From: Balanoglossus misakiensis
Lineage: Eukaryota > Animalia > Hemichordata
Assembly (NCBI GenBank): GCA_040954595.2
Contig: CM082586.2
Location: forward strand, 11,997,337-12,061,336
Reading direction: 5' to 3'
DNA length: 64,000 nucleotides
Part shown: positions 13,301-37,620 of the stretch, piece after piece
Position numbering within the stretch: position 1 is the first letter of the stretch
Layout: every line of letters starts with the position of its first letter
Notes under the pieces: generated by a model
What the model saw: only the letters and a program-made list of their open reading frames with translations
The model's database searches: none
Told to the model about the DNA's origin: nothing
Program-made: the position numbers and the translations under genes

Positions 13301-13399
13301 GCCATGTTTTACTAAAAAGACTTATGTATAGTTTCAAGGCTTTGTTTTGGAATAACGAATTCTCTCCAAGATTTAAGTTGAACAGTTACAGAATGAAAA
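1324..13399. repeat. Satellite DNA array, left arm; AT-rich monomers of 186 bp and ~206 bp
   Basis: Head-to-tail repeats of ...CATAAATGG(A/T)ATTCAAAGAA.GGTCAC.TAAC...GATTTAAGTGGAACAGTCACAGAATGAAAACAAATATGGAAAGAGTTATGC...; spacing 186 bp (1512->1698). Long monomers carry an extra 20-bp TTTACTAAAAAGACTTATGT. A 785-bp 4-mer repeat is visible at 6911, 7696 and 8481. Confidence 0.97.
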
Positions 13400-14612
13400 T
13401 TAAAGCTGCAAGCAGCGTTGGCGGGGCACAAGCGGTTCCCATGGTGACCAGCAAATGCCACGGCTGTATCTGCTGGGGATACCAATATATGGGAAAGTAG
13501 GTCAAAGGTCACCTGAGGTCACCCAAAATTTGGGCAAAAAAATTGGACCCCATAATAGTCTAGATCCAACAAAAAACCAGACCCCTAGCCCTATTGGTTC
13601 GCCTGCAATTAGGTATGCACATAATTAATGAAGTCTTGTGTAAGACTCCATTATGTGCTCAATCCCCATAAAAGCCAGGGCTCTAACTGCTCTGGATGCT
13701 GAGATATGGGAAAGTAGATCAAAGGTCACCCAAGGTCACCCAAAATTAGGGCATAAAATTTTGACCCCAGAGTGGGCCATGTCCAACCAATACCAGACCT
13801 CTAGCCCTATTGGGTAGCATGGAATTAGATATGCAGAAAAATGATGTTTCAGAAATAGGTCAAAGGTCATTGTCAAAATTACCAAAATATTTGTGTCATG
13901 TCCTGGCAGCATTGGTACCCATGTCCACAAAATTCATGACTTTGGTGCTTTGACAAGAGGAGGTATGGGGAATATGCATATATAATTAGTTGTTTTAAAA
14001 CTGGGTCAAAGGTCATGTGAAAATTGCCCCGAAAAATTGTGACAACTTCCGGTCATATGATGACTCATATCCCAAAAAAGTATTTCCATGCTGTCAACAT
14101 TTTGGCTACAAAACGGAATTATCACTTTTCAATGGTTTTCCGAAAATCCAACATGGCCGCCATAATGATCGACCAATCACAGTGCGCTTCGCAAACTTGA
14201 TAGACATAGGTTAGGTGACCACATATCCCAAATCCCGAGACTCGGTAACCGCTGGTTCTGGAGAAGAAGATTTTTAAAGTTTTAAGTAGTTTTTCAGAAA
14301 AACAATTGTAGCAAAAAAACTTTATGTATGACGTCATGATTTTAATGGGGTAAAATGATGGACATAAGGTAGGCTACCTGCACACCAAATTTGAACTCGA
14401 TCGGCCCAGTGGTTTTAGAGAAGGACTCATTTAACGATTTTCAGGAAATCCAATATGGCCGCCAGGTCACGTGACTAATTAAATATTCACGAGCCACTGC
14501 ACGTCTACTCATTGGCCCCTACCACCCTACCAAGTTTCAGCCCCCTAGGTGCTGCGGTTTTCCAGATCTACCTGGCCGAATTTCTCGGAAGAAGAAGAAT
14601 AATAAAGAAGAA
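13400..14612. mobile_element. Element A, left portion: outer non-autonomous Helentron-associated (HINE-like) element; remainder at 37565-37620
   Basis: Short hairpin GCTGC-AA-GCAGC (13405-13416) and subterminal IR GGGGCACAAGCG (13423-13434), whose reverse complement CGCTTGTGCCCC is at 37606-37617. Internal modules are diverged homologues of B/C. Ends in a GAA-rich tract. Confidence 0.85.
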
Positions 14613-16289
14613 TTAAAGCTGCAAGCAGCATTGTCCGGGCCCAAGCTCTATTATCTGATCAGATTATTAGATATGCACATAATTAATGAGTAGAAACATA
14701 ATGCTGTGTTTTATCCCATGAAATATCAAGGTTATATCTATGTTTGGTGCTGATATAATGTTAAGTAGGTCAAAGGTCCCCTGAGGTCACCCAAAATTTG
14801 GGCAGAAAAATTTGACCCATAGTGGTCCATGTCCAACAAAAACCAGACCTCTAGCCCTTTTGGTTAGCCCGGAATTAGGTATGCACATAAATAATGAGTT
14901 AAGCAGGTGTCACAGGTGACCCAAAACTTTGGCTTTTAATTATGGCCCCATACCTCCAAACGCCAAGGCTGTATCTGCTGTGGATGTCGAGATATGCAAA
15001 AGTAGGTCAAAGGTCACCAGAGGTCACCCAACATTTGGGCAAATTTGTTTGACCCAATACTGGTCCATGTCCAACAGAAACCAAACCTCTAGGTCTATTG
15101 GTTCATCTGGAATTAGGTATGTGCATATTTAATGAGGTCAGCAGAGGTCACAGGTGACCCTAAACTGTGGCTTTTCATTATGGCCCCATATATCCAAATG
15201 CCAAGGCTGTACCTGCTTTGGATGCCAAGATATGCAAAAGTAGGTCAAAGGTTATCCGTGGTCACCCAACATTTGGGTAAAATATTTTGACCCCGTACTG
15301 ATCCATGTCCAAAAAAACCCAAACCTCCAGGTCTATTGGTTCATCATGAATTAGGTATGCGCATATTTAATGCGGTCAGCAGAGGTCAAAGGGGTCATGA
15401 AAAGTAGCAAAATTGTTTGATCACATACAAATCCACATACATCAAAAACCAAACTTGTAGCCCTATTGGTTAGCCTGGAATTAGATATGCAGAAAAATGA
15501 TGTGTCAAAAGTAGGTCAAAGGTCTTTGCCAAAATTACCAAAATATTTATAGCTTATTCTTGTCATATGATGATTCATATCCATAAAAAGAATTTCTGTG
15601 CTATCAATTTTTAGGCTAGAAAGGGAATTTTTACTTTTTAATCGTTTTTCACAAAATCCAATATGGCCGCCATAATCTTCGACTAATCACATTCTTCTTC
15701 GCAAACTTGATAGACATCTGTTTAATGACCACACACACCAAATCTTGTGACTCGGTTATCGCCGGTTCTCGAGAAGAAGATTTTTGAAATTTTACTAGGG
15801 TTTTTCGAAAATCCAATATGGCCGCCATAATCTTCGACCAATCACAATGATCTTCGCAAACTTGATAGACATCAGTTAGGTGACCACATACCCCAAACCC
15901 CGTGTCTCGGTTATCACCGGTTCTAGAGAAGAAGATTTTTGAAATTTAAGCCAGATTTCAGAAAAAAAATTGTAGCAAAAAAACTGCAACATTGACAGCA
16001 TAATTTCCAATTACAAAAATGTTTGACAGAAGGTAGTCTACCTGCACGCCAAATTTGAAGTCGATCTGACTTGTAGTTTCTGAGATCTGAGATTTGCATT
16101 TTTTCAGAAAATCCAAGATGGCCGCCAGGTCATGTGACTAATTAAAAATTCATGGGTTCAATGCACGACTACTCATTGACCTTGACCACTGTAGCAAGTT
16201 TGAGAACTGTACCTGCAGTGGTGTCTGAGATCTAGAGCGACAAAGAAATGACAGAAGAATAAAGAAAGAAGAAAGAAAGAAAGACAGAA
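14613..16289. mobile_element. Element B, left portion: middle non-autonomous element of the same family as C; remainder at 37512-37564
   Basis: Begins TTAAAGCTGCAAGCAGCATTGTCCGGGCCCAAGC. The first ~550 bp closely match C's left end (16290 onward) and the last ~0.9 kb closely match C's right end (~36550-37460). The subterminal IR GGGCCCAAGC (14637-14646) matches the right hairpin at 37530-37563. No ORF. Confidence 0.87.
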
Positions 16290-17555
16290 TTAAAGCTGCA
16301 AGCAGCATTGTCCGGGCCCAAGCTCTATTATCTGATCTGATTATTAGATATGCACATAATTAATGAGTAGAAACATAATGCTGTGTTTTATCCAATGAAA
16401 TATCAATGTTATATCTATGTTTGGTGTTGATATAATGTTAAGTAGGTCAAAGGTCACCAAGAGGTCACCCACAATTTGGGCAGAAAATTTTGACCCATAG
16501 TGGTCCATGTCCATCAAAAACCAGACCTCTAGGCCTTTTTGTTAGCACGGAATTAGGTATGCACATAAATAATGAGTTGAGCAGGGGTCACAGGTGACCC
16601 AAAACTTTGGCTTTTCATTATGGCCCCATACCTCCAAACGCCAAGGCTGTATCTGCTGTGGATGTCGACATATGCAAAAGTAACTCAAAGGTCACCCAAG
16701 GTCACCCAACATTTGGGCAAAAAATTTTGACCCAATACTGGTCCATGTCCAACAAAAACCAAACCTCTAGGTCTATCGGTTCATCTGTCATTAGGTATGT
16801 GCATATTTAATGAGGTCAGCAGAGGTCAAAGGGGTCATGAAAAGTAGCGAAATTTTTTGATATCATACAAATCCACATACATCAAAAACCAAAATGATAG
16901 CCCTATAGGTTAGCCTGGAATTAGATATGCAGAAAAAAATGATGTGTCAAAATTAGGTCAAAGGTAATTGCCAAAATTACCAAAATATTTAGGGTAGGTC
17001 CTGGCAGGGGCGATACCAATGTGCACAAAAATCAGAACTCTGGTACATTTAGAACAGGTAGTATGAGCTATATATGCATCCCTATAGGTTAGCCTGGAAA
17101 TAGATATGCAGAAATAATAATGTGTGAAAAGTAGGTCAAAGGTCATGTGAAAAATCGCCAAAAATTTTAACATATTTAGTCATATGACGATTGATATCCA
17201 TAACAAGAATTTGCATGCTATCAATTTCTAGACTAGAAAAAGGAATTTCAATTTTTCACTGCTTTTTACAAAATCCAACATGGCCGCCATATTTTTCGAC
17301 CAATCACAATGCTCTTTGCATACTTGATAGACATCAGTGTAGTGACCATACTCCCAGAATCTTGCGACTCAGTTATCGCTGGTTCTGGAGAAGATTGTTG
17401 GAGTTTTACTATGGTTTTTCGAAAATCCAATATGGCCGCCATAATGTTCGACCGATGACAATGTTCTTGGCAAACTTAGTAAAAATTGTGGCAAAAAACT
17501 GGAACATGGACAGCATAATGTCCAATTACAAAATGATGGGCAGAAGGTAGACTAC
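16290..17555. repeat. Left subterminal modular repeat block of element C
   Basis: Degenerate ~120-bp subunits with AGGTCAAAGGTCA, then AAAATCCAA(T/C)ATGGCCGCCAT modules. Same orientation and order as the blocks at 35140-37460. Confidence 0.8.
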
Positions 17556-18139
17556 AAAATATTGTGATTACACACTAATCCACATGCATCATTACACATG
17601 CGGTAGTTGAGGGCGAAATACAAAGTTAGAATGGACACATTATGTGATTGGTTAATTACTCACTAGTGATGTGTGGATTGGTTGTAAATAGTTGAAAATT
17701 TTCATCTCAATCAGTGAAAGTTTTGACAGAGGTATTTGTTTGGCTATAAACATATCTTTATTTAAGTGAACGGATCTGTATATTACATTTGTTAACTGTG
17801 AAGAGGATGCACCAGGTATAGATATACCAATATATTGAGCTGTATAAACGGAGTGTTAACCCAACACGTCTATGGGGTATGAATCTGAAAGCAACTTCAT
17901 CCTACGCACTTGAATCCGAAAACGAATCTGACTCCAGCAGAGGCGTTGACCTGAATCCGGTGAGTAACACGTATACAATCACATGCAGTTTTTAAATGTG
18001 GTACGAATGAGAGAATCGGTGGTTTGAACGTATAATACTTGGTGGTGTTGGTTATGAAGTTGTTGTTTAACCAATGGTAGTGTGATTTTGTTTGTTTGTG
18101 AGACGATGGCAGTTTTGTAAGATGTTTTGTATTTTCGTC

Positions 18140-18480
18140 TCGAGCTAAATCCAATATGGCGGCTATCGTAACATGTCGAGATTGCTTATTGTATGTAAAG
18201 AATCCATGGTACCGTAAGCATGCATGTTTTGGCAAATGTTATATATGTTGAGATGGTGGAGTTTGCTGGATTAAATAGAACAATTAGAGGCTGGGTAAAT
18301 CAGAGTTTCTAGTGCGTTCCATTCAAGTTTAAATTACGAGATAAGCTTCTTTTTGCAGTCAATGTACAAATGATTATTTAGACTGGAAAGGGTTTAGGCA
18401 AGCGAATCTCGTGACCGGAAGTGTTGAATTCGGGCGATCGGTGTGTCATGCGTATGTTACGTACAAGCGTTGGTAAAGTA
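18140..18480 (+). promoter_or_regulatory. Candidate promoter of the transposase transcript
   Basis: Locally CpG-rich unique segment with a YY1-like AATATGGCGGC (18153-18163) and an ETS consensus ACCGGAAGTG (18414-18423), upstream of the putative leader exon. Motif evidence only. Confidence 0.35.
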
Positions 18481-19138
18481 TTATTTCTGGGATGTGTAGT
18501 TGTAAAAAAAAATAAACTGTGTGGTATTTATGGATTGGCTTTTCCAAATACGTAAATACTGCATTTATTTCTGTGAATATTGTATGTTTATGTGATCAAA
18601 AGCCCAGGGGTAATCATTGAAATTTTTATCAGTTAAATCGATTTGTTTTTTGATAATTGAAAGGAATTTTGCTTCAAATATTGAACAATCTGTGTGAGTA
18701 CAAAACAGAAACATTGCTGGATTATTTGACATTTTGGTTGTTTGTAAAAATGTGGGGACAAGCGGAGAATTGGCCAAATATTTTTGGTGACCACTGTCTT
18801 TAGTGTGTATGCTTTCAGGTGGTGACAGGTGTGCCAAAACATAGACAATGGAATCTGGCAGGAGCATGAAAAGAACAGTTGACTTGTTAACATATTTTGA
18901 TGCCATGAAACTATGTTGTGGGCAAGACAATTTATGTTATCAATCTGTGGTAACCTGTATGTGCCATTTGTATGGAAACTGTGATCAAGATATGAATTTC
19001 TGAATATCACAAGCTTGGAAGTGAATTTATTGTTAATTGTTATCCTGTTTGTAGGCAATTGTATATTTTCATGTACTAGTTTAAATATAAATTTATAGTT
19101 AATTAGTTAATTAAACAGGTTTTTTATTTTCTTGACAG

Positions 19139-19164
19139 ATTTTGGCTACCAAAGAGTTTTCAAG
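19139..19164 (+). other. Putative 26-nt leader micro-exon of the transposase mRNA
   Basis: Strong acceptor TTTTTATTTTCTTGACAG before 19139 and consensus donor AAG|GTGAGT after 19164. A matching acceptor (CTAAC branch-like site, TTTGCTTTGTTCCAG) lies immediately before the ATG at 22445. Confidence 0.5.
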
Positions 19165-19794
19165 GTGAGTGTTGGTGCACAACAGTGCATAGTATCATAG
19201 ATTACCACACTCAGATGTGCATTGTGTCAAATGTGGATTAGCCTTTTAAATCATTTGCGGAGGAATTGCTTAGTTCTACTATCAGTCACACTGTGGTTTA
19301 ATATCAGATAGGATGATTGTCCACTTCCATGCACCGTCTGTTAACATGTAAAAGCACTAGCCCATTTCTTTGAATTTGTTATTCAGGGGTGACGGAAGAA
19401 AAACATATTGTTATAGTTCATAGAAATGGTGTTTATTGAATACATCAGAAAGGAAGGGACTTGTATGTGCAGAACAATCATTGTGCTATGTGGTGTTAAG
19501 ACCATTGGATAGTGCCATTACTTACAACAATGGCTTCAAAAAAAAAACATTGGTATGATGTATGTTTCTTGATATCCTTGTCCTGTCATTGAACTTGTAT
19601 ATTAAATTACTAAGTGTAAATCACGTATAAAACAATCATGTTATGATTTGTATGAGTACATAATGAAAATGCCAGGATGTAAGGTCATACAGGGGTCAGG
19701 ATTCAAGCCTTGTCAGGTTCTTCAGGAGGGAAATGTGGTGTCAGTGAATACTGTATGTGTATTTGTCCGTGTGTGTGTCTGTTGTCATTGTACA

Positions 19795-22090
19795 TGGACT
19801 TGATATTGCTGACTGGTGGAAATGGTTTTGAAGTGAAATTTTATTCAGATTTGGCTGAGTACATTGCAACGTAAATGGAAAAATGTTGGGTCATTCAGGG
19901 TCAGGTCTGAAGCCTTATTTGGTTGTACACGGTGGATGTTGGGGTGGCTGTGTATTTGTGTATGTCTGAAATTCATACATGTATGCCTATCGTACTTGGA
20001 CTTGATATTGCTAAATAGTGGCAATGATTTTGAAGTGAAATTTTTTTCAGATTTGGCTGAGTACATTGCAACGTAAATGGGAAAATGTCGGGTCATTCAG
20101 GGTCAGGTCTGAAGCCTTATTTGGTTGTACACAGTGGATGTTGGGGTGTCCGTGTATTTGTGTATGTCTGTGCAAATTCATACATGTATGCCTATCGTAC
20201 TTGGACTTGATATTGCTAACTGGTGGAAATGTTTTTGAAGTGAAATTTTATTCAGATTTGGCTGAGCACATTGCAGCGTAAATGGGAAAATGTCGGGTCA
20301 TTCAGGGTCAGGTCTGAAGCCTTATTTGGTTGTACACGGTGCATGTTGGGGTGTCCGTGTATTTGTGTATGTCTGTGCAAATTCATACATGTATGCCTAT
20401 CGTACTTGGACTTGATATTGCTAAATAGTGGCAATGATTTTGAAGTGAAATTTTTTTCAGATTTGGCTGAGTACATTGCAACGTAAATGGGAAAATGTCG
20501 GGTCATTCAGGGTCAGGTCTGAAGCCTTATTTGGTTGTACACGGTGGATGTTGGGGTGTCCGTGTATTTGTGTATGTCTGTGCAAATTCATACATGTATG
20601 CCTATCGTACTTGGACTTGATATTGCTAAATAGTGGCAATGATTTTGAAGTGAAATTTTTTTCAGATTTGGCTGAGTACATTGCAACGTAAATGGGAAAA
20701 TGTCGGGTCATTCAGGGTCAGGTCTGAAGCCTTATTTGGTTGTACACGGTGGATGTTGGGGTGTCCGTGTATTTGTGTATGTCTGTGCAAATTCATACAT
20801 GTATGCCTATCGTACTTGGACTTGATATTGCTAAAAAGTGGCAATGATTTTGAAGTGAAATTTTATTCAGATTTGGCTGAGTACATTGCAACGTAAATGG
20901 GAAAATATCGGGTCATTCAGGGTCAGGTCTGAAGCCTTATTTGGTTGTACACGGTGGATGTTGGGGTGTCCGTGTATTTGTGTATGTCTGTGCAAATTCA
21001 TACATGTATGCCTATCGTACTTGGACTTGATATTGCTAAAAAGTGGCAATGATTTTGAAGTGAAATTTTATTCAGATTTGGCTGAGTACATTGCAACGTA
21101 AATGGGAAAATATCGGGTCATTCAGGGTCAGGTCTGAAGCCTTATTTGGTTGTACACGGTGGATGTTGGGGTGTCCGTGTATTTGTGTATGTCTGTGCAA
21201 ATTCATACATGTATGCCTATCGTACTTGGACTTGATATTGCTAAATAGTGGCAATGATTTTGAAGTGAAATTTTTTTCAGATTTGGCTGAGTACATTGCA
21301 ACGTAAATGGGAAAATGTCGGGTCATTCAGGGTCAGGTCTGAAGCCTTATTTGGTTGTACACGGTGGATGTTGGGGTGTCCGTGTATTTGTGTATGTCTG
21401 TGCAAATTCATACATGTATGCCTATCGTACTTGGACTTGATATTGCTAAAAAGTGGCAATGATTTTGAAGTGAAATTTTATTCAGATTTGGCTGAGTACA
21501 TTGCAACGTAAATGGGAAAATATCGGGTCATTCAGGGTCAGGTCTGAAGCCTTATTTGGTTGTACACGGTGGATGTTGGGGTGTCCGTGTATTTGTGTAT
21601 GTCTGTGCAAATTCATACATGTATGCCTATCGTACTTGGACTTGATATTGCTAAAAAGTGGCAATGATTTTGAAGTGAAATTTTATTCAGATTTGGCTGA
21701 GTACATTGCAACGTAAATGGGAAAATATCGGATCATTCAGGGTAAGGTCTGAAGCCTTATTTGGTTGTACACGGTGGATGTTGGGGTGTCCGTGTATTTG
21801 TGTATGTCTGAAATTCATACATGTATGCCTATCGTACTTGGACTTGATATTGCTAAATAGTGGCAATGATTTTGAAGTGAAATTTTATTCAGATTTGGCT
21901 GAGTACATTGCAACGTAAATGGGAAAATGTCGGGTCATTCAGGGTCAGGTCTGAAGCCTTATTTGGTTGTACACAGTGGATGTTGGGGTGTCCGTGTATT
22001 TGTGTATGTCTGAAATTCATACATGTATGCCTATCGTACTTGGACTTGATATTGCTAAATAGTGGAAATGATTTTTAAAGAAAATTTCAC
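19795..22090. repeat. Internal tandem array of ~11 near-identical 205-bp units (202-bp variants at both ends)
   Basis: TCAGATTTGGCTGAG recurs every 205 bp (20047, 20252, 20457, 20662, 20867, 21072, 21277, 21482, 21687). Degenerate flanking copies at ~19660-19795 and ~22090-22290. Confidence 0.95.
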
Positions 22091-22444
22091 TCAGATCTGA
22101 GATTTGTCTGAGCACATTCTAATGTGAATGCCAGAATGTTAGGTCATACAGGGGTCAGGATTTAAGCCTTATCCTGTTTTCCAGCAGAAAAAAGTGTGTC
22201 TGTGATACTTTGTGTGTATATGTGTCTATTTGTATACAAGCATGGGGATATGTGTGTATTATGTGTTGCTGTTGAATTACAACTTTGTTCGGACTTAGTT
22301 TCTATAAATCACTTCTGTCTGTTAAAAGTTCCACTACTTTTTACTGGTTATAATCACTTGTGATGTGATTTGATGAGAAGGTTATCTGAAGTCTGGTGGT
22401 GAAAGGATAGTAAAAACCTAACTAGTATATTTGCTTTGTTCCAG

Positions 22445-28400: not shown

Positions 28401-29746
28401 ATGCAGAGGTTAATAGCTGTAATGTTGAAATGCTTCAATCTCAATGTTCTGACCCTGTATGTATTGAAGCAGAGGATTTTAGCAGGAATCCTAAAACTGG
28501 AAGGCTAGAAAAAAAGGAAGGTCATCACGTAAAAGTGTATAGGACAACTTTGCCAAAGACTCTAACTCTAGCTGTTGGTGCACGAGTACAACTGGCGCAT
28601 AACATTGATGTGGCTGATGGTTTGGTGAATGGCGTATTTGGCACAGTATGTCACATTGCAGTGAAACCAAAGAAAAAATTTCCAGCTGCCATTTATGTTG
28701 TATTTGATAATGAGAAAGTTGGCCAAGGATTGCGTAAAAAGAAGCCTATAACTATATCTGACCTTCCAGTAAACAGCACCCCTATAGAACCTCAGGAAAT
28801 GTCTGTAGCAAGTAATGGTGGTATTAGGAGGCAGTTTCCTTTAAAACTAGCTTGGGCATGTACAGTTCACAAAGTACAGGGTTTAACCGTTGAAAAAGCA
28901 GTTGTCAGTTTAAAGAAGATGTTTGCACCAGGACAGGCATATGTGGCATTGAGTCGGGTGACATCATTAGATGGTCTCATTATTAATGACTTTAACAAAT
29001 CATCCATATATTGCAATGAAAAAGTACAAGAAGCGCTGGAAACAATGCCAAAGTTTCTTCCCAAGTGTACTCAGACAGAACAGAGTAAATATACATGCTC
29101 ATTTGTATTGCATAATGTTGAGGGCCTTGTACATCACATTAAAGATATTTGCAATGACAGTGAATACTTGGAAGCAGACTTCATTTGTTTGACGGAGACA
29201 TGGTTATCTGAAAAAGAAGCATGGTGTGATGTACAATTGAGCGGGTTTGAATTCAATCACCAACCTCGATCTCAATCCTACAATCAATTTGATACAAATA
29301 CCTCAAGTTTACAGTTGCAACAGCGGGGTGGTGTTGGAGTCTATAGCAAAATTTGCAAGAATTTTGAAATTTTGCATTTGGCTGTGACTAATTTGGAATG
29401 TATTTCATTTTATGTCACAAATATCAATGTTACAATAGCTATAGTTTACAGACCTCCATCATACAAAGCAGAGGTATTCAAAAATAGCATGGTTTCTTTG
29501 GTGAAAGCAATGGAAAAATACCCAGGAGGCAAACTGATCATGGGTGATTTCAATGAAGATATCTTGACTCGGTCATCACTTGTAAAGTTCATGGAAGATC
29601 ATGGCTTCAGACAATCTGTAAGCGAACCAACTACAGAAGCTAATACACTGATTGATCATGTGTATGTGAAAGGAATACAAAATGTGACAGTAAATGTTAT
29701 ACCAAAATACTTCAGCTTTCATGAAGCAATAAGCATCAAAATATAG
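22445..29746 (+). CDS. Helentron Rep/Helicase transposase polyprotein (2433 aa): OTU cysteine protease, Zn-finger, HUH Rep, Pif1-family SF1B helicase, C-terminal APE/EEP endonuclease
   Basis: Uninterrupted ORF; first ATG at 22445 (the ORF track starts at a TTG at 22436). OTU: GDGNCFFRS...WAT..E...NHYEVV. Zn-finger: CSVC...CHTC. Rep: PTWFCSFS, YFYRVEFQQRGSPHTHCLFW, YIVSYISK. Helicase: GGAGTGKS, APTGVAA, IIDEISMV, GDFYQLPPV, EIMRQ, QFPLKLAWACTVHKVQGLT, GQAYVALSRV. EEP: HNVEGL, LTETWL, GGVGVY, YRPP, GDFN, IDHVY, SFH. Confidence 0.96.
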   Translation: MPRSRYWRKKRSQKNEDAVVSEDPVLLKNRIAIEHKEGPALSKNRNNNEFKEGPALSKNRNRNEFKEGPALSKNRNRNEYKEGPALSKNRNRNEYKEGPALSKNRNRNEFKEGPALSKNRNMDKIRKSDRENESTKVNNEIFETENQSVDKTEGSNEILQQHSLDNDSSDDLYIGSGTEDNVYSFSPLTSDVCEQLCCKFDIVDKNKIDILNKLGSVTIGDPCNYKSIIGDGNCFFRSLSYCISGTERNHGVIRTAIVNHLKANEEVYSGWVRLDGYTSVADYIEKSRMDRLGTWATETEILATTNLFNVNIFVYSFDSWWKHSCNIINKNNVDRGVGIYLNHRNRNHYEVVSCVKTPQLETCHCTHIECDVDVPVEIVTGECMDVTDNECSKQIGLKKEFHLDEVFATHEELPCLAPVRAEKRGRAMGERLKKKLRREKYESERGILNKLNVPSSLSSSKAAKQYERYQTNCEYRDNIKSVNRKRYHEDVLYRENKKRRLVGRYDCDLVFREVQKTVCAEQCLAKYEKVPLYREHKKSESAAQCVDKYKKDQTFRKHKKSQSAAQCVDKYKKDQAFREHKKSQSAAEFANKYQKDLNFRELKNSQNAAQFLDKYNKDEEFQKQIKKNCLERYQQDQVYKQTVLERTRTEMKVRKINKENIERVIIDFRNQTSVGPNCVCSVCHRRLFRKQVLVCKMDNYVSKGDLCEMNAKKCITQDYVHNCTELCIAECPLKSSAASKLWICHTCHSKLLRAEMPVQAAANNLDVKPIPNELKCLNSLEQHLIALHIPFMKMMALPRGGQNGVHGPVVCVPSNIEKATSILPRGELDDQMIKVKLKRKLSYKGCYQYQFVNKGHIQNALEYLQKNNLWYNDVKFNLAWENTLEKTEEKSAGESNGNIEDKNLDTEGNGVASDTEGGNEPEKDTDGIFMDTCFQPVDIGQDILDYHFDDIACVAPGEDNKPVRVLMEKFNEAKCFPVIFPTGSPTFHDDREVKITIGRYLQSRLMNASNRFARSTDYIFYAQYRSELDQVVSNVSIALRKGTANACGKKVTSDVLTDGDSLREILKCDEGYKFLKPIRGTPPYWQATQKDLFAMIRQLGIPTWFCSFSAADLRWKEVIETILREEGDVRNAEDLDWSEKCGILRRNPVTAARMFDHRFHCFLTDVIMSPASPIGKIKDYFYRVEFQQRGSPHTHCLFWVENAPKVDKDSDEDVVDFVDTYVTCEMPSIEEDEVLHEIVKTVQKHSSRHSKSCKKKGTTCRFNFPRPPSNKTFVCHPSVSIDTGIEVTDDNQCKGDQMTTSLENEFEIDFPQLDDTALAQKKARQILERVWTCLCDKEKPIDTIDDLFNAVGISQEMFEQANAILAKKTSVVLKREPSDVWVNQYNANLLRCWNANMDIQFVVDAYACVVYIVSYISKAEREMGLLLEHAQKEANKEGNMDAKSAMKELGGVYLHNREISAQEAVYRVCGLKLKQSSRKVQFIPTGENQIKMSLPLAAIQKKMKGDDLDEEEIWMNSIVDRYKNRPNGEDFDNMCLATFCSEYRVVSKSEMKNVSTDKRRSPIVKLKNDVGYMQKRSRYDGAVVRYARFSVTKYPEKHYCSILQLFLPYRTESQLKPSGFESYEDFYCLGAVKCGSASLEKVKVIVDANKALFETEAEAIDAAEQILEENGPLEDAWAQLCPENELERLECIEEGKKCCDDDPVDDSDIPDLVQKPKGDDCHVEMSYSMKKYEVETMCRSLNKKQAEVFYTVRKWCLDKSNGKNPEPFYLFVTGGAGTGKSHLIKAIYHEAKRILARAMPDVDGISIALTAPTGVAAFNIQGTTLHHIFSIAVDSKLPYQPLREEKLNTLRCKFGNLQILIIDEISMVDKKLLYYVHGRLRQIKQSSAESPFGNVCVIAVGDFYQLPPVKASPLCIDRESVNLWNDNFSIVELTEIMRQKDCAFAEALNRVRVHKKGDTMNADDVAMFQRCVTGETSEAMHVFATNAEVNSCNVEMLQSQCSDPVCIEAEDFSRNPKTGRLEKKEGHHVKVYRTTLPKTLTLAVGARVQLAHNIDVADGLVNGVFGTVCHIAVKPKKKFPAAIYVVFDNEKVGQGLRKKKPITISDLPVNSTPIEPQEMSVASNGGIRRQFPLKLAWACTVHKVQGLTVEKAVVSLKKMFAPGQAYVALSRVTSLDGLIINDFNKSSIYCNEKVQEALETMPKFLPKCTQTEQSKYTCSFVLHNVEGLVHHIKDICNDSEYLEADFICLTETWLSEKEAWCDVQLSGFEFNHQPRSQSYNQFDTNTSSLQLQQRGGVGVYSKICKNFEILHLAVTNLECISFYVTNINVTIAIVYRPPSYKAEVFKNSMVSLVKAMEKYPGGKLIMGDFNEDILTRSSLVKFMEDHGFRQSVSEPTTEANTLIDHVYVKGIQNVTVNVIPKYFSFHEAISIKI
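22508..22807 (+). repeat. In-frame 45-bp coding minisatellite (15-aa EGPALSKNRNRNE(F/Y)K), about 6.7 units
   Basis: GAGGGGCCTGCCCTCTCTAAAAACAGG at 22553, 22598, 22643, 22688, 22733 and 22778, plus a degenerate first unit at 22508. Confidence 0.93.
23100..23505 (+). other. OTU-like cysteine protease domain within the transposase
   Basis: D-G-N-C catalytic loop (~23132-23146) and distal N-H-Y (~23483-23491). Confidence 0.85.
23950..24345 (+). repeat. In-frame 66-bp (22-aa) basic helical repeats (YKKDQxFRxHKKSQSAAQCVDK-like)
   Basis: CAG(A/G)CATTCCGA at 24101 and 24167; about 6 progressively diverged units in translation. Confidence 0.8.
25350..26900 (+). other. HUH/Y2 Rep domain
   Basis: HTH (HUH motif) at 26021-26029 and YxxxYxxK at 26675-26698. 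Ser in motif 1 and F-x-R before motif 2, as recalled for Helentron-type Reps. Confidence 0.92.
27660..29050 (+). other. Pif1-family helicase domain
   Basis: Walker A GGAGTGKS at 27764-27787 and the downstream SF1B motifs in the expected order. Confidence 0.95.
29090..29746 (+). other. APE-like (EEP) endonuclease domain
   Basis: N..G, ETW, YRPP, GDFN, IDH and terminal S-F-H motifs in the order found in L1/CR1-type endonucleases. Confidence 0.88.
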
Positions 29747-29766
29747 TAATTTACACTTGTATTTGA

Positions 29767-29772
29767 AATAAA
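29767..29772 (+). terminator. Candidate polyadenylation signal
   Basis: AATAAA 21 nt after the stop codon, followed by a second AATAAA and an A-rich tract. The region is A-rich, so this may be chance. Confidence 0.35.
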
Positions 29773-29880
29773 ATAAGTAAATAGAAAAATAAAGAAAAAA
29801 AAAACATGACGAGGAAAAACCTCATTCAGGTACATGCTTCAAAAATGGCCTTTGTAAACAAAAAGATTGGTGACAGATGG

Positions 29881-30040
29881 TTCCAGACCTTGTTGCTTCG
29901 CCAAGGCAAATCATGTGCCTCTGGTGGACATGACCGGGCAAGTATCCTGTGCTGGCGGAGCGACTCTTGCTAGTTGCTATACTCCTTGCCTAATCATACT
30001 GCCAGTAGTGCCCTAGGGTACATAGCGATGAGGTCTGGGA
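29881..30040 (+). other. GC-rich, highly self-complementary 160-bp island (degenerate MITE or structured RNA/ssDNA element)
   Basis: Outer stem TTCCAGACCT/AGGTCTGGGA; inner 12-bp stem GTTGCTTCGCCA/TGGCGGAGCGAC closing three contiguous hairpins. Confidence 0.5.
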
Positions 30041-30432
30041 GCAAAACTACCCAGCAATATTAGTGAATATACTTATAATGGCTCCTAGGATAAATCAATT
30101 ATGTTCAATTCAAATAGTTTATTGTCAACAACAAATGTAAAAAATGTCTTCAGGCTCACTAATCAAGTTACAAATACAGGATAAAGAGCATTGTGATAAA
30201 ATTTATACATACATAAACACAATTCCAATATGATGACAACCACATCTGCATGCAGCTAAGGATAAAACTGAGAAAGGATGAAACTGAGGGTGAAAGAAAA
30301 CAGAAAATAGGAGAACTGTTTACAGGGTTAAAATATATTATAACAGAAAATACAATTAATCAATTTTGTAAAGGTGCTACAGATACTAAAATGTTCAAAA
30401 ATAAATCATCAATCAGTTAATATGAAAATAGA

Positions 30433-30452
30433 CTAATAAATAAATGTACTGA

Positions 30453-30491
<39 letters not shown>

Positions 30492-30664
30492 ATGAATAAA
30501 TAAATAATTAAACAAACAAACAAACAAACAAACAAACAAACAAAAAACAAACAAACAATAAAAAAAAAAATTAAATAAATAAATAAACAAACAAACAAAC
30601 AAACAAACAAACAAAAACAAACAAACAAAAAAAACAAACAATAAATAAATAAATAAATAAATAA
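30433..30664. repeat. Compound (TAAA)n/(CAAA)n microsatellite
   Basis: Directly visible. Confidence 0.95.
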
Positions 30665-31322
30665 GTTCTAGTTTATAATTTCTATTTTTTGATGGAATTA
30701 CAGAAAACAGGTCATGACGTTTTTGATCTGATGTCAAGGGGCAAAGTTCCCCATAATACAGTACCAGTGTAGGATATTGCAAATTTACATATGGATGTAT
30801 TGACAGTTTGAACAAAAAGATTTCCTTGATTTTTATGTCATGTACTGTATTGGTGAGACGCTAATGAACAATAGTTAGTGAAACAGAGAGGTAAATTGTC
30901 ATTGACCACAGGTCATACAAAAAGGTACACAATTGAAGTTTGTGTGGTGTGAAGATGTCAAGAATATTCACATGTTTAAATAAAACAGCCAAGTGTGCTG
31001 TGAAGTCGCGAAAGGTTACAACTCTAGCTGCCTTTTTAGAGCGAGGAGAATGCTGTTAAGATGAAAAGGATATGTGGATATCCAGACTTCAAGGCCGATT
31101 AGGTGATGTGATGTAGTATAAATGTGTTTAATATAGAGAAGAATTAAAATATATTTTGGTACAAATTTGAAATGATTTAACTTTCAGAAGAAGATAAACT
31201 CAGGCGAAGGATTGAGTAATTTAAGACAGGCTGCCTGGCTGTCATAATGTTTTATCTGTCTGTATGTCTGTGTCATGTATGCACTGGCATATGTACATTT
31301 GTAACATATGTACATGTGTATA

Positions 31323-31325
<3 letters not shown>

Positions 31326-31386
<61 letters not shown>

Positions 31387-31402
31387 CATGCATGCATGCA
31401 TG

Positions 31403-31434
<32 letters not shown>

Positions 31435-31478
31435 TGTATGTATGTATGTATGTATGTATGTATGTATGTATGTATGTA
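31326..31478. repeat. Compound (TG)n/(TATG)n/(CATG)n microsatellite
   Basis: Directly visible. Confidence 0.95.
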
Positions 31479-34400
31479 CCGGCATGTATGTGCGTGCACG
31501 TGTACCAGTATGATGTGGAGGCATTTTCTATGAATATACAACATTATTCTTAGATATGTTAAGTATTTTACGGCAATTAATCCATTTCATGGAAAGTGTT
31601 ATCGTTCAATTTAGAAGCTCCAGAGGATGTAATTACAATGTTAAATATTACAGTAACATCATGGGATAATCATCTTTGTGTGCAGACTCAATATTGAGTA
31701 TATATATACAAAATGTATATAATTTCTCTGCCTTCAATTCTGTGTGGTATAGTGTATTTATTGCATTTTATCAAAAGATACGTCAGATGCTGTATTTTGA
31801 ACATCTTGTTGTATACTGTAATACTGGATAATTATTAATTGTAGTAAAGATATTTGCTTTTATTATGAGAGTAAAAGTAATGTTTGAAATTGTACATTTA
31901 ATTATGGAAAAAGTCTACTGGTGTTTGGTATACCTTGTAAATAACCGAATTTGACTCAAGATGGTTATTTTACAACATTAATTGAAATGTTTAAATTGTC
32001 ATTGTTATTATCAAACATGGTTATGTGAATTTGATAACTATTTATTTGGAAACAATGTGGCTTGAAATGTTTGAACTTGTATTCTTTTTCTCAAATGAAA
32101 TACTGTCTGTTGGAGATTTTATGTTTTTAAAGTTTGTGTCAACATGACATACATGAAATTTTCCTTTTCATTACAACATTAAGTTACATCTTTGAAATTG
32201 TCAGATTTATTATTAAACATGGTTGTGTTCATTGATTATTTAAGGGTAATTAATTATTTAGAATCAGTGTTGTTACATTTTGTTAGAAAAGTAATTGAAA
32301 TCTTTACAATTATATTTTGTTATCAAAAAAAGATTGTGTGTGTTGGATATTTTACAATTATAAACATTTTGATCAGCATAGTTGCCTTTATTTGAGCATT
32401 TACTGAATGGTTTGACATTCTAAAGTTTATCATCACACATCATTCTGTCTGTTGAATATTTTATGACAGTTAAAAGTCAAGTCGGTTGGATTAGAACATT
32501 AATTCTAATATAGATTGATGTTGGAAATTGTAAATTTTATCATCAAATGTAGTGTGAAGAATAGACGATTGTATTAAAGTAAAAATATGGTACATTGACC
32601 TGGAGAAACAGGGGTTAATAATTAATTTCTTCGAATGGTATTTGTTGAGCTGTTGCCACAGAAGCTGTATGGCATTTCAGTGTAGATAGCACATGTGAAT
32701 ATACAGCACTGAAACCAATGCATTTTAATACAAGTGAACTGTAGATGTGAATTTGGTCGAAGGGAAAAAGCAAATAGAACACTGTCACAAGATAGTGGAT
32801 CTGAGAGTTTGTCTCATTATTAAAGTGTCACACATATACATAGCAACAATGTGTGCTTTTGAGCAAGCTCCATAATTACCCAGAAACATTATTAGGAATG
32901 CTTTGCTGTTAATTAACTGTAGTCTGTTGCATGACGGATATAATAGAAAGATAATGTTTCGATCTGTATGGAAAGGGTTTTCATATCCTATGGAGTAATC
33001 AGCATAAATAGAAAAAATGGAAATATTTACAAACATAAATATCTGTATTTAATATATATGTGTTAATTATTTAACTTTGTTCATATCACTACCATGTGTG
33101 GATTAAGCTATTGGTGTTCATTGAACCCTGCAGAAGTCAACAAGGAACATTGTATTGTAAAAGATTAGCCTGTGCCTAGCTTGCTTTAAAACAGTGACAC
33201 ACCTACAAAATGTTCATTTCATATATACCGGTACATGCATGCTTTTAAGAGACAAACTCTTACTCAGCAATTGTTAAGAGTTTTCTTTAATATTAAAAAC
33301 TGTTTCTGTTGTTTTAATAGTTGAAACATGCTGAAATATTGGTGAACTGTACTCAATCTGCACTATGCACATACGGTACACATACATGTACAAGATAGAA
33401 CATTCAATGATTCAGTAAAATAATTTATGATGTCCATCCTGTTTTTGACTGTTGGTTAAACTTCGATCCATGTATTTGACTGTATAGCCATAGTGGCAAA
33501 CTGTTTAGACCACATCGAGCTTAGAATGAGATCATAGAGTATGAATTACTCTAGCTGTCATGTACAGTACCATGATGGCAATATGTTATGTATCCAAGAG
33601 AAACAATGTAGTTTATTTAATCTGAATGTCACACATAGATTCACCACTTTTTATGCAGCAAAGGGGTAATTTCTGACCCCGTTTTTTGTTTATGCACTGA
33701 AGTTATATTGCACAGTGAGAAACGTTATGCAAGTATTCCCTGTATTCTTGAATGATAACACAAACAGGGCCAAAAACTGCATTTTGAAATTCTAGTAGAC
33801 TTTTGCCAGGGTCAGATTTCCACACTTAATAAGTGTTATATTAGATATGTCCTCTTAATATATATGTTTTTAAGTATTTGATATGTCAACATGCACTGAA
33901 AGGAATACTGGATATTCAAATGATTAAGATAGATGGTAACTTAACTACACCAATTCTCTTGGTGGAAGAATTAAATATTGTCTGTTACTACACTTGGCCA
34001 TAGTTATTAGATTAAAGCCAACTTGGTTTGCTTCAATATAAAACTAATGGGTAACAGATGAATTATAAATGGCAAATTGTGCATCATCACATAATAGCCA
34101 AAAACAGTGCCTAAGATACTGTAGAGCATGTGATTCATATGAGGATTTTAGAGTAAGACACAGCTTATTAATGTTCAAGCTTGTAAGATAAGGATTCTGC
34201 AAAAGCAGAACAGTTAGGTCATTTAAGTAGTTCTATGGTAGATAAATGATGTTGTTTCCAAAAATGCCGTCTGTTACTCAAATGATGAGTGACAGCATTC
34301 CTGGATTTAACTTGCATCAGTAATTTGGTAGTTAAGTCAAATTTTACTACAATTTGTCACTTGTGGTCAGTCTTGACGGGTGTAACATGCTAGGAGGGTA

Positions 34401-35139
34401 CACTTACCCATTCCGGACACCTGGTACCACCACTTAGCAGTGGTTCAAGATGATCCTGTAGAAATTCTCATTTTTCTCTTATTTATTATTTGGACCTGTT
34501 AATTAGCTTACTTTGAATGATATTGATTATTCGACCTGATTTGATGTCTTATTCTTGCAATAACAAACACAAACCTCTACTGTTGTCAACCTTTTATTTA
34601 TTTAAGACAATCCTTTCAGGTGAATCATTGCTTGTTTGAAAGCAGCCTTTATTGTAGCTATCTCTTCATTTTAATGTACATTATAGGTCTCTGACCACTT
34701 AAAACATAACTTCTAAGTCTGATTTTCTTATCTATCTTTACTCTGTACAATATATCTGGTTTGGCTGATATATCACCCAATGGCCATACAAACTTTTGTC
34801 ATTTAATTTTGTCACATACTAGTACATATCCAAAACACAAAACATCTATGGCCCTCTTATTATTAGGCATACAATTTGCTTAAGTATAACAACCCGTAAA
34901 GTGTTTCAACATACCAAATACAAATACTTTATCTGCTCTGAAAGTCGAGATATGGAAAAATAATACAAGGTCACCCCAGGGACAAGGCTGAATCTACTAT
35001 GGATGCTGATATATACGAAAGTAAATCAAAGGTCACCTATGGCCACACGGATATTCGGACAAAATAGTTTGACCCCATACTATGTCCATGTCCGTGTTGG
35101 TAAACCTGTAATTATGTATGCACATAATTAATGCGTAAA

Positions 35140-37460
35140 GCAGGTGTCATAGGTGACCCAAAACTTTGGCTTTTCATTATAGCCCCATACCTCCAAACGC
35201 CAAGATTGTACCTGCTGTGGATGTCGAGATATGCGAAAGTAGGTCAAAGGTCACCAGAGGTCACCCAACATTTGGGCAAAAAATTTTGATCCCATACTGG
35301 TCCATGTCCAACAAAAACCAAATCTCTAGCTCTATTGGTTCGCCTGTAATTAGCTATGCATATAATTAATGAGGTCAGCAGAGGTCAAAGGGGTCATGAA
35401 AAGTAGCAAAATATTTCAATCACACACTCATCCACATGCATCAAAAACCAAACGTCTAGCCCTATAGGTCAGCCAGAAATTAGATATGCAGAAATAATAA
35501 CACGTAAAAAATAGTAGGTCAAAGGTCATGCGAAAAAGTCGCCAAAAATTTGTAACATATTTTAGTCACATGAAGATTGATATCCATCAAAAGAATTTGT
35601 ATGCTATCATTTTTTAGACTAGGATAAGGAATTCAAATTTTTCACTGCTTTTTACAAAATCCAATATGGCCGCCATAATCTTCGACCAATCACAATGCTC
35701 TTTGAAAACTTGATAGACATCAGTGCAGTGACCATACTCCCCGAACCTTGCGACTCAGTTATCGCCCATTCTGGAGAAGAAGATTTTTGGAGTTTTACTA
35801 TGGTTTTTCGAAAATCCAATATGGCCGCCATAATCTTCGACCAATCACAATGATCTTCGCAAACTTGATAGACATCAGATAGGTGACCACATACCCCAAA
35901 CCCCGTGTCTCTGTTATCACCGGTTCTGGAGAAGAAGATTTTTGAAATTTAAGCCGGATTTCAGAAAAAAAATTGTAGCAAAAAAACTGCAACATTGACA
36001 GCAAAATATCCACCTACAAAAATGATGGGTAGAAGGTATACTACCTGCACACCGAATTTGAAGTCGATCTGACTTGTAGTTTCTGAGATCTGAGATTTGC
36101 ATTTTTTCAGAAAATCCAATATGGTCGCCAGGTCACGTGACTAATTAAAAATTCACAGGTTCAATGCACATCTACTAATTGACCTTGACCACTGTAGCAA
36201 GTTTGAGAAGTGTACCTGCAGCAGTGTCTGAGATCTAGAGGTCACCCAGAGGTCACCCACAAAACCAAAAACCTTTTGGTTAGCCCGGAATTAGGTATGC
36301 ACATAAATAATGAGTTAAGCAGGTGTCACCCGTGACCCAAAATTTTGGCTTTTCATTATGGCCCCATACCTCCAAATGCCAAGGCTGTATCTGCTGTGGA
36401 TTTCGAGATATGCAAAAGTAGGTCAAAGGTCACCCGAGGTCACCCAACATTTGGGCAAAATATTTTTACCCCATACTGGTCCATGTATAACAAAAACAAA
36501 ACCTCTAGGTCTATTGGTTAATCTGTAATTAGGTATGTGCATATTTAATGAGGTCAGCAGAGGTCAAAGGGGTCATGAAAAGTAGCAAAAAATTTTTATC
36601 ACATACAAATCCACATACATCAAAAACCAAACTTATAGCCCTATTGGTTAGCCTGGAATTAGATATGCAGAAAAATGATGCATCAAAAGTAGGTCAAAGG
36701 TCATTGCCAAAATTACCAAAATATTTATAGCTTATTCTTGTCCTATGATGATTCATATCCATTAAAAGAATTTCTGTACTATCAATTTTTAGGCTAGAAA
36801 GGGAATTTTTTCTTTTTAATCGTTTTTCACAAAATCCAATATGGCCGCCATAATCTTCGACCAATCACATTCCCCTTCGCAAACTTGTTAGACATCTGTT
36901 TAATGACCACACACACCAAATCTTGTGACTCAGTTATCGCCGGTTCTTGAGAAGAAGATTTTTGAAATTTTACTAGGGTTTTTCGAAAATCCAATATGGC
37001 CGCCATAATCTTCGACCAATCACAATGATCTTCGCAAACTTGATAGACCTCAGTTAGGTGACCCCATACCCAAAACCGCGTGACTCGGTTATTGCCGGTT
37101 CTGGAGAAGAAGATTTTTGAAATTTTGACCAGATTTCAGAAAAAAAATTGTAGCAAAAAAACTGCAACTTTGTCAGCATAATTTCCAATTACAAAAATGA
37201 TTGACAGAAAGTAGTCTACCTGCACGCCAAATTTGAAGTCGATCTGACTTGTAGTTTCTGAGATCTGAGATTTGCATTTTTTCAGAAAATCCAATATGGC
37301 CGCCAGGTCACGTGACTAATTAAAAATTCATGGGTTCAATGCACGACTACTCATTGACCTTGACCACTGTAGCAAGTTTGAAAACTGTACCTGCAGTGGT
37401 GTCTGAGATCTAGAGCGACAAAGAATTGACATAAGAATAAAGAAAGAAAGAAAGACTGAA
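35140..37460. repeat. Right subterminal block of element C: two tandem copies of a ~1.15-kb modular unit
   Basis: Copy 1 (~35140-36240) ends GAGATCTAGAG; copy 2 (~36300-37395) ends GAGATCTAGAGCG and is followed by (GAAA)n. Both are direct repeats of the left block and of element B. Confidence 0.85.
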
Positions 37461-37478
37461 AAATACCAACGAAACCAA

Positions 37479-37620
37479 TAGGGCCCAAGCCTGGCTTGGC
37501 TTGGGCCCTAAAAACCCCAACGAAACCAATAGGGCCCAAGCGCTGGTATGCGCTTGGGCCCTAAATATTCCAACAATAACAATGGGGGCACAAGCCGCCT
37601 GAGGGCGCTTGTGCCCCCAA
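37479..37620. repeat. Three stacked terminal hairpins (right ends of C, B and A)
   Basis: 13-bp stem/6-nt loop at 37479-37510; 14-bp stem/6-nt loop at 37530-37563; 13-bp stem/11-nt loop at 37583-37619. Each is preceded by a homologous 18-nt A/C-rich spacer. Confidence 0.93.

What the first reader, a model, noticed from the sequence alone, without database searches (positions are those of the whole stretch)
13400..37620. Russian-doll Helentron nest: two successive insertions at the same homologous nucleotide, suggesting site-specific self-targeting
Seen: three left termini (13400, 14613, 16290) and three right hairpins (ending 37511, 37564, 37620) whose subterminal IRs pair in last-in-first-out order (GGGGCACAAGCG outermost, GGGCCCAAGC for the inner two). 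Removing C rejoins B as AAGACAGAA|AAACCCCAACGAAACCAA-hairpin. Removing B rejoins A as AAGAAGAA|ATATTCCAACAATAACAA-hairpin. C's uninterrupted equivalent is AAGACTGAA.AAATACCAACGAAACCAA-hairpin. So both insertions follow GAA, lie 18 nt before the hairpin stem and have the same orientation, although the spacer sequences differ. Known: Helentrons prefer TT targets, but such sites are abundant in these AT-rich kb-long hosts. Inference: the transposase is recruited to the terminal hairpin/subTIR of a resident relative and integrates at a fixed distance. This keeps the host termini intact and supplies a fresh empty site each time, giving a self-renewing safe-harbour (homing-like) mechanism. I do not recall this being described for Helitron-like elements, but it rests on only two events.
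Basis: partly seen in the sequence, partly recalled or inferred. Interest (0 to 1): 0.9.

Follow-up and report, generated by a model that had tools for sequence, protein, structure and literature searches.

The report
Helentron landing behind relatives' end hairpins
An intact rolling-circle transposon sits inside two smaller relatives, each inserted at the same spot just inside the previous one's end hairpin; the spot is likely chosen because every copy carries its own preferred A/T-rich target sequence there, and such stacked ends are already described in fungi.

Summary
The nest is real. A 21.2-kb autonomous Helentron (C; intact 2,433-aa OTU-Rep-Pif1-endonuclease ORF) lies in a 1.73-kb non-autonomous relative (B), which lies in a 1.27-kb one (A), inside a 206-bp satellite. 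Both inner insertions use a G[AA]A site 18 nt from the host's hairpin. Contigs of one public sample hold both uninterrupted host sites and the same 18-19-nt junction with other hairpin variants, so the site is a recurrent hot spot. The distance is not fixed: junctions at about 26, 26 and 28 nt and head-to-tail joints also occur, and A itself landed with no hairpin nearby. Most likely the transposase prefers T-run/TTTC targets, and each copy carries such a tract behind its hairpin; recruitment by the hairpin is not excluded (about 25%). By convention this hairpin is the Helitron2 5' end, so the stack equals the 'multiple 5' termini from self-insertion' published for Fusarium FoHeli1. This scan noted similar nests in at least two other genomes. 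What this case adds: the autonomous partner caught in a complete nest, with base-level offsets.

The parts
1324..13399 (.). 206/186-bp satellite array, left of the nest
13400..14612 (-). Element A body (non-autonomous; 1,269 bp when its displaced end is counted). Left terminus = conventional 3' end: small hairpin 13405-13416, inverted repeat from 13423; purine tract at its right edge
14613..16289 (-). Element B body (non-autonomous; 1,730 bp with its end); 238- and 155-bp internal repeats; GAAA-type tract about 16240-16289; 92-94% like C's two arms
16290..37511 (-). Element C, autonomous Helentron, 21,222 bp, uninterrupted
22445..29746 (+). Transposase ORF, 2,433 aa from the first ATG: OTU, DUF6570, Rep (HUH, two tyrosines), Pif1 helicase, endonuclease; runs opposite to the conventional 5'-3' direction of the ends
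19790..22096 (.). 205-bp tandem array (11.3 copies, 97% matches) inside C, upstream of the ORF
34983..36240 (-). Older second body copy in C's right arm (84% to B), ending just before the tract
37418..37460 (+). C's purine (GAAA-type) tract ending in the empty G[AA]A site at 37459-37460
37461..37511 (-). C's 18-nt spacer and terminal hairpin (stem 37479-37509, -16.5 kcal/mol); conventional 5' end
37512..37564 (-). B's displaced end: 18-nt spacer and hairpin (stem 37530-37562, -19.1 kcal/mol)
37565..37620 (-). A's displaced end: 18-nt spacer and hairpin (stem 37583-37618, -21.3 kcal/mol)
37621..63997 (.). Satellite array resuming in phase, right of the nest

Best explanation
This is a three-deep nest of one Helentron family (autonomous C in non-autonomous B in non-autonomous A), and the shared insertion point is likely set by sequence: the transposase likely prefers T-runs ending in C (G[AA]A on the window's + strand), and every copy carries such a tract right behind its terminal hairpin. 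Shown: nesting, intact transposase, 18-nt offset, recurrence of the junction in other copies, other offsets at 26-28 nt. Inferred: copies move by rolling-circle copy-and-paste and integrate at TT; the 18-nt site is the G[AA]A at the hairpin-side edge of the tract (the only one in A's tail, the longest A-run in B's), and the distance is shared because the spacer length is conserved in the family; a one-sided target fixes the orientation. Each newcomer leaves the host's ends whole and brings a new empty site, so stacks can grow. Double-hairpin copies then probably spread as chimeras, as proposed for FoHeli1, which inflates junction abundance.
For: Offsets seen (18-19, about 26, 26, 28, and one in a GAAA run) all lie in the tract or at its edge; B's GAAA sites lie at 18, 26, 30, 34, 41, 60 and A's only one at 18. 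The tract is the most purine-skewed 30-nt window of A (26/30) and B (29/30). Among the 8 indel rows there is a junction with one extra A but none with fewer As, so the register follows the G rather than sliding through the A-run. One host with an A-run of about 10 nt across the 18-nt mark was hit at about 26 nt instead (one contig). A inserted in a GAAAAC site of a satellite with no family hairpin. Published: Helitron2 inserts between TTTT and T/C (PMC3627910, passages); HINEs target T-rich DNA (PMC4067079, passages); a Helitron-like family disrupts (GAAA)n microsatellites (Coates et al. 2010, title only, in a reference list).
Against: In B-type hosts the 18-19-nt junction has summed depths of 10,000-20,000 against 140 or a single contig for 26 nt, although GAAA sites at 26, 30, 34 and 41 compete; a proximity effect would explain this, as would chimera amplification. 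The 28-nt junction and A's own site do not follow G[AA]A. The family's target consensus outside nests could not be measured (no genome). All extra junctions come from one sample, from truncated tables, and none of the 16 listed pieces has 31 letters on both sides of a junction.
Confidence: 0.62

Rival explanations
1. Hairpin-guided self-homing: transposase bound to a resident relative's terminal hairpin, its normal origin, opens the DNA just inside and the incoming copy integrates at the first suitable TT beyond the protein's footprint, mostly 18-19 nt away.
For: Same offset in two hosts about 72-79% alike; strong mode at 18-19 nt over neighbouring GAAA sites; offsets 15-17 nt not seen; FoHeli1 repeats its first 31, 65, 73 or 85 nt behind a 16-nt hairpin, also close to the hairpin; head-to-tail joints could be insertions at the other foot of the hairpin. 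HUH enzymes that process DNA at resident hairpins exist in bacteria (TnpA-REP, PMC3333891, abstract).
Against: Offsets of about 26, 26 and 28 nt; a long A-run at the 18-nt mark was skipped once; A inserted without a hairpin; the spacer length is conserved, so distance and sequence are confounded.
Confidence: 0.25
2. No real preference: insertions fall on TT sites at random, and only the rare ones just behind the hairpin give mobile double-hairpin chimeras that multiply, so they look like a hot spot.
For: High junction depth fits amplification; the model is published for FoHeli1. I laid only the end region at high resolution, so nests elsewhere in the body would be under-reported.
Against: The window's nest is complete (three left and three right ends), not a chimera; two events at the homologous TT have P about 0.003; at least four inner-end/host combinations share the 18-nt site (T- and G-ending hairpins, each on A- and B-type spacers).
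Confidence: 0.1
3. Tandem rolling-circle array rearranged afterwards, or an assembly artefact.
For: Head-to-tail joints exist in the family; no read spanning the whole nest was available.
Against: Three different hairpin sequences in last-in-first-out order, base-precise junctions, restored satellite unit, both empty host sites present in independent contigs.
Confidence: 0.03

Closest known systems
Helentron / Helitron2 (HLE2 subgroup b) with reversed ORF, e.g. Helitron-1_DR, Helentron-Da-40A; non-autonomous HINE/DINE-1 partners (PMC3627910, PMC4067079, PMC11417382; passages read)
   Same: Domain set, asymmetric inverted repeats, hairpins at both ends, TT target, microsatellite behind the 5' hairpin, central tandem repeats. 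Nearest proteins are 59-60% identical, from abalone, acorn worm and hagfish, then 50-56% from fishes.
   Different: The passages read do not report repeated insertion into the element's own tract.
Fusarium oxysporum FoHeli1 with multiple 5' termini (PMC5148889 sections 6, 10, 16 and part 1 of 5 of supplement Table S6; PMC13342296 passages)
   Same: Short (<200 bp) 5' ends stacked by self-insertion near the 5' hairpin, recurrent lengths, up to five ends; chimeras thought to move on.
   Different: There the stacks have one 3' end and the nest is inferred; here the complete nest with all three 3' ends is in place, involves three different family members in an animal, and the site borders a microsatellite.
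Maize Helitron1 with multiple termini from nesting (PMC3288121, passages)
   Same: Nesting followed by remobilisation gives multiple ends.
   Different: Helitron1 ends; no recurrent offset in the passages read.
Lepidopteran Helitron-like family disrupting (GAAA)n microsatellites (Coates et al. 2010; title only)
   Same: GAAA tract as target.
   Different: By its title the target is host microsatellite; text not seen.
TnpA-REP / REP hairpins of E. coli (PMC3333891, abstract)
   Same: HUH enzyme acting on DNA at resident hairpins; analogy for the rival mechanism only.
   Different: Bacterial single-tyrosine enzyme without helicase; not a relative by any test made here.

Membership tests
Helentron (HLE2) | Rep domain with HUH motif and two tyrosines fused to a Pif1 helicase | tested here: met
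   PF14214 E=4e-30, PF05970 E=3e-26; H1196, H1198, Walker A and B identical in 60 of 60 relatives, Y1414 and Y1418 in 58 of 60; Helraiser 7lcc E=4e-19
Helentron (HLE2) | C-terminal apurinic-type endonuclease | tested here: met
   PF03372 E=5.5e-8; E2254, D2371, N2373, D2407, H2429 conserved; position 2428 is F, with D in only 10 of 60 relatives, so activity is not assured
Helentron (HLE2) | DUF6570 marker domain; OTU upstream | tested here: met
   E=1.7e-20 and 6.5e-6; marker status from PMC11417382
Helentron (HLE2) | 5' inverted repeat at the terminus, folded into a hairpin | tested here: met
   Three hairpins of -16.5 to -21.3 kcal/mol, stems ending 2 nt from each end; definition
Helentron (HLE2) | 3' inverted repeat 20-30 bp from the end, inside a small hairpin | tested here: met
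   Repeat starts 23-24 nt from each left terminus; 12-nt palindrome at nt 6-17, weak (whole end -3.0 to -4.6 kcal/mol)
Helentron (HLE2) | Insertion at TT without target duplication | tested here: inconclusive
   TT target met at all three sites; a 2-bp duplication cannot be told from element-owned Ts
HINE/DINE-1 | Microsatellite behind the 5' hairpin and central tandem repeats, ends shared with an autonomous partner | tested here: met
   Tract at 18-60 nt; 238- and 155-bp repeats; B 92-94% to C's arms
Helentron (HLE2) | Joined-end circular intermediate | tested here: inconclusive
   Right-end-to-left-end joints in 2 contigs behind 37511 and a majority of 7 behind 37564; circles and genomic tandems not separable
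Helentron (HLE2) | Placement in the HLE2 clade of a transposase tree with Repbase references | not tested
   No reference set was at hand; homologues only
FoHeli-type multiple 5' termini | Short stacked 5' ends from self-insertion | tested here: met
   53- and 56-nt displaced ends against 31-85 nt
FoHeli-type multiple 5' termini | Multi-end chimeras transposed to new places | tested here: inconclusive
   High summed junction depth; loci not resolved
Hairpin-guided fixed-distance homing | Single fixed offset | tested here: not met
   18-19 is the mode, but about 26, 26 and 28 occur
Hairpin-guided fixed-distance homing | Preference lost when the hairpin is removed | not testable with these tools
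   Needs an assembly-wide count or an assay

The most novel reading that the evidence does not exclude
The Helentron transposase docks on a resident relative's terminal hairpin and integrates the incoming copy a short, footprint-set distance inside it: structure-guided self-homing by a eukaryotic HUH transposase, conserved from fungi (FoHeli1 stacks) to animals, which builds self-renewing stacks and lets autonomous elements swap in fresh 5' ends.
Probability: 0.25. Interest if true: 0.75.

Novelty: new variant of a known kind. Interest (0 to 1): 0.42.

Why it matters
How Helitron2/Helentron transposases choose targets has, to my recall, not been shown biochemically. This locus gives an intact transposase, its two ends, and a natural hot spot with competing sites at known distances, so sequence against hairpin guidance can be tested directly. 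Either way, carrying one's own target explains stacked ends, clustering and chimeric families, and is a cheap safe-harbour strategy. It also shows in place the intermediate that the FoHeli1 model only inferred.

Tried and rejected
No whole genome is held, so the genome-wide flank table could not be made. No Rep relative in viral contigs. No RNA holder listed. Runs X3/X4 (share 0.07) gave 63 contigs each and nothing usable on junctions. Depths are sums over contigs and were not used as copy numbers. Earlier-finding look-ups by sequence and by place were empty. A maize PNAS paper on Helitron clustering was not held under the id I recalled. PMC9075770, PMC7492417, PMC3879986 and PMC12001565 (passages; section 17 of the last) held nothing on self-insertion. 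Literature searches for prior reports; none listed a paper on hairpin-guided Helitron targeting, but most subscription journals and Repbase reports are not searched, and the FoHeli supplementary figures (PDF too large) were not seen and may show target sequences of those self-insertions. No structure or complex prediction was run; it would not bear on target choice.

Full report
Observation. The window is a 206/186-bp satellite array broken by one 24.2-kb insert, 13400-37620. A motif search finds three left termini and three right hairpins and no others. A's inverted-repeat variant occurs only at 13423 and in the outermost hairpin; B and C share a second variant. The displaced ends of B (53 nt) and A (56 nt) each consist of an 18-nt spacer and a hairpin, and C keeps an uninterrupted site at the same distance. 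All junctions have AA on both sides where the empty site has it once. Removing A restores a satellite unit in one ungapped block.

What the parts are. C (21,222 bp) holds an open 2,433-aa frame with OTU, DUF6570, Rep, Pif1 and endonuclease domains; the catalytic HUH, tyrosine and Walker residues match 58-60 of the 60 relatives aligned. The nearest proteins are 59-60% identical, from abalone, acorn worm and hagfish, followed by many fishes, so the host is probably an aquatic animal. B (1,730 bp) matches C's left arm over its first 542 nt at 94% and C's right arm over the last 1,248 nt at 92%; A (1,269 bp) is 72-79% like B. In the Helitron2 convention the end whose inverted repeat folds into a terminal hairpin is the 5' end, and some elements such as Helitron-1_DR have the ORF reversed (PMC3627910, passages). 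Behind each 5' hairpin lie the spacer and a TTC/TTTC tract, the layout described for DINE-1/HINE elements (PMC4067079, passages).

More than chance? A and B hold 249 and 370 TT sites on both strands; a second insertion at the homologous site has P=0.0027. With one site per A/T run P=0.010, with a GAAA/TTTC target P=0.037. These nulls are post hoc: two events reject random TT use but only weakly a short sequence preference.

Outside evidence. No genome was held. Two contig sets of one public sample (X1, X2; 53% and 49% of sampled words) carry the family in great abundance (7,872 and 4,004 contigs laid). At several positions all laid depth shows another letter than C (for example 36013, 36054, 36743, 36778), so this may be another individual, though that is not certain. 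On the end stack 521 and 332 contigs were laid. The two indel rows are my reading of gapped alignments. Against a fixed distance: junctions at 28 nt in an A host (837), at about 26 nt in a host with a long A-run (140), at 26 nt in a B host (1 contig), one into a GAAA run of unknown host (1 contig), and right-end-to-left-end joints (2 contigs; most of 7). Offsets were counted by hand from the printed letters. Limits: one sample; 36 loose ends and 849 pieces not shown; none of the 16 listed pieces has 31 letters on both sides of a junction; insertions outside relatives could not be counted, so there is no denominator.

Mechanism. Shown: nesting, recurrence, a mode at 18-19 nt with a tail to 28 nt. 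Inferred: rolling-circle copies integrate at TT with a preference for T-runs ending in C. GAAA sites lie at 18 nt (only) in A's tail and at 5, 18, 26, 30, 34, 41 and 60 nt in B's; the used sites 18 and 26 are on that list, 28 is not. No junction with fewer As appears among the 8 indel rows, so the register stays at the G. A's own insertion used a GAAAAC site with no family hairpin nearby and a register 2 nt off. Published targets agree: TTTT followed by T/C for a Chlamydomonas Helitron2, T-rich DNA for HINEs, (GAAA)n for a moth family (title only). A one-sided target explains the shared orientation. I give this 0.62. The excess of 18 over 26-41 nt in B hosts leaves room for recruitment by the resident hairpin (0.25); distance and sequence are confounded because the spacer length is conserved. 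Chimeras that start at the outer hairpin and stop at the first 3' end would multiply junctions under either model.

Comparison. C meets the tested Helentron features; target duplication and circles are inconclusive and no reference tree was built. Stacked 5' ends from self-insertion are published: FoHeli1 repeats its first 31, 65, 73 or 85 nt (PMC5148889, sections 10 and 16; supplement part), up to five ends in banana-wilt strains (PMC13342296, passages); maize Helitrons gain multiple ends by nesting (PMC3288121, passages). Searches listed no paper on hairpin-guided targeting or on the element's own microsatellite as landing site. Three earlier notes of this scan describe the same kind of nest through TTA/AAT repeats in other genomes; they are unchecked AI notes and not counted as support, but they steered me toward the own-microsatellite reading.

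Verdict. Real and recurrent, a new variant of known Helitron2 self-insertion. The fixed-distance homing claim is too strong; a weaker hairpin-guided version stays open and is testable with this intact element. Interest 0.42.

Noticed in passing
window 34983-36271: C's right arm has a second, older body (84% to B) that stops just before the tract and joins a younger body (93% to B) through a 31-nt patch resembling the left body; 34 and 24 contigs show the ordinary sequence there. Possibly the scar of an earlier nest whose inner left end was deleted, which would make C itself a chimera with a renewed 5' end.
   Followed up: partly
window 37511 and 37564 (contigs): Right end joined directly to a left terminus: circles, tandem copies, or insertion at the outer foot of the hairpin.
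   Followed up: partly
window 19790-22096: Homogeneous 205-bp array (11.3 copies) inside C upstream of the ORF; its length is close to the flanking 206-bp satellite, but the self-comparison showed no match between them.
   Followed up: partly
window 22514-22808 and 24045-24298: In-frame 45-bp and 66-bp tandem repeats within the transposase ORF.
   Followed up: no
ORF residue 2428 (about window 29717): The aspartate that usually precedes the last catalytic histidine of such endonucleases (recalled) is F here and D in only 10 of 60 relatives.
   Followed up: partly
window 1324-13399 and 37621-63997: The satellite mixes 206-, 186- and 117-bp units into higher-order patterns, and long stop-free frames on the minus strand (1946-3070, 4240-5292) come from it.
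   Followed up: no
window 30426-30664 and 31315-31478: ATAA/ACAA and TG/TGTA microsatellites downstream of the ORF, with no family insertion in them.
   Followed up: no
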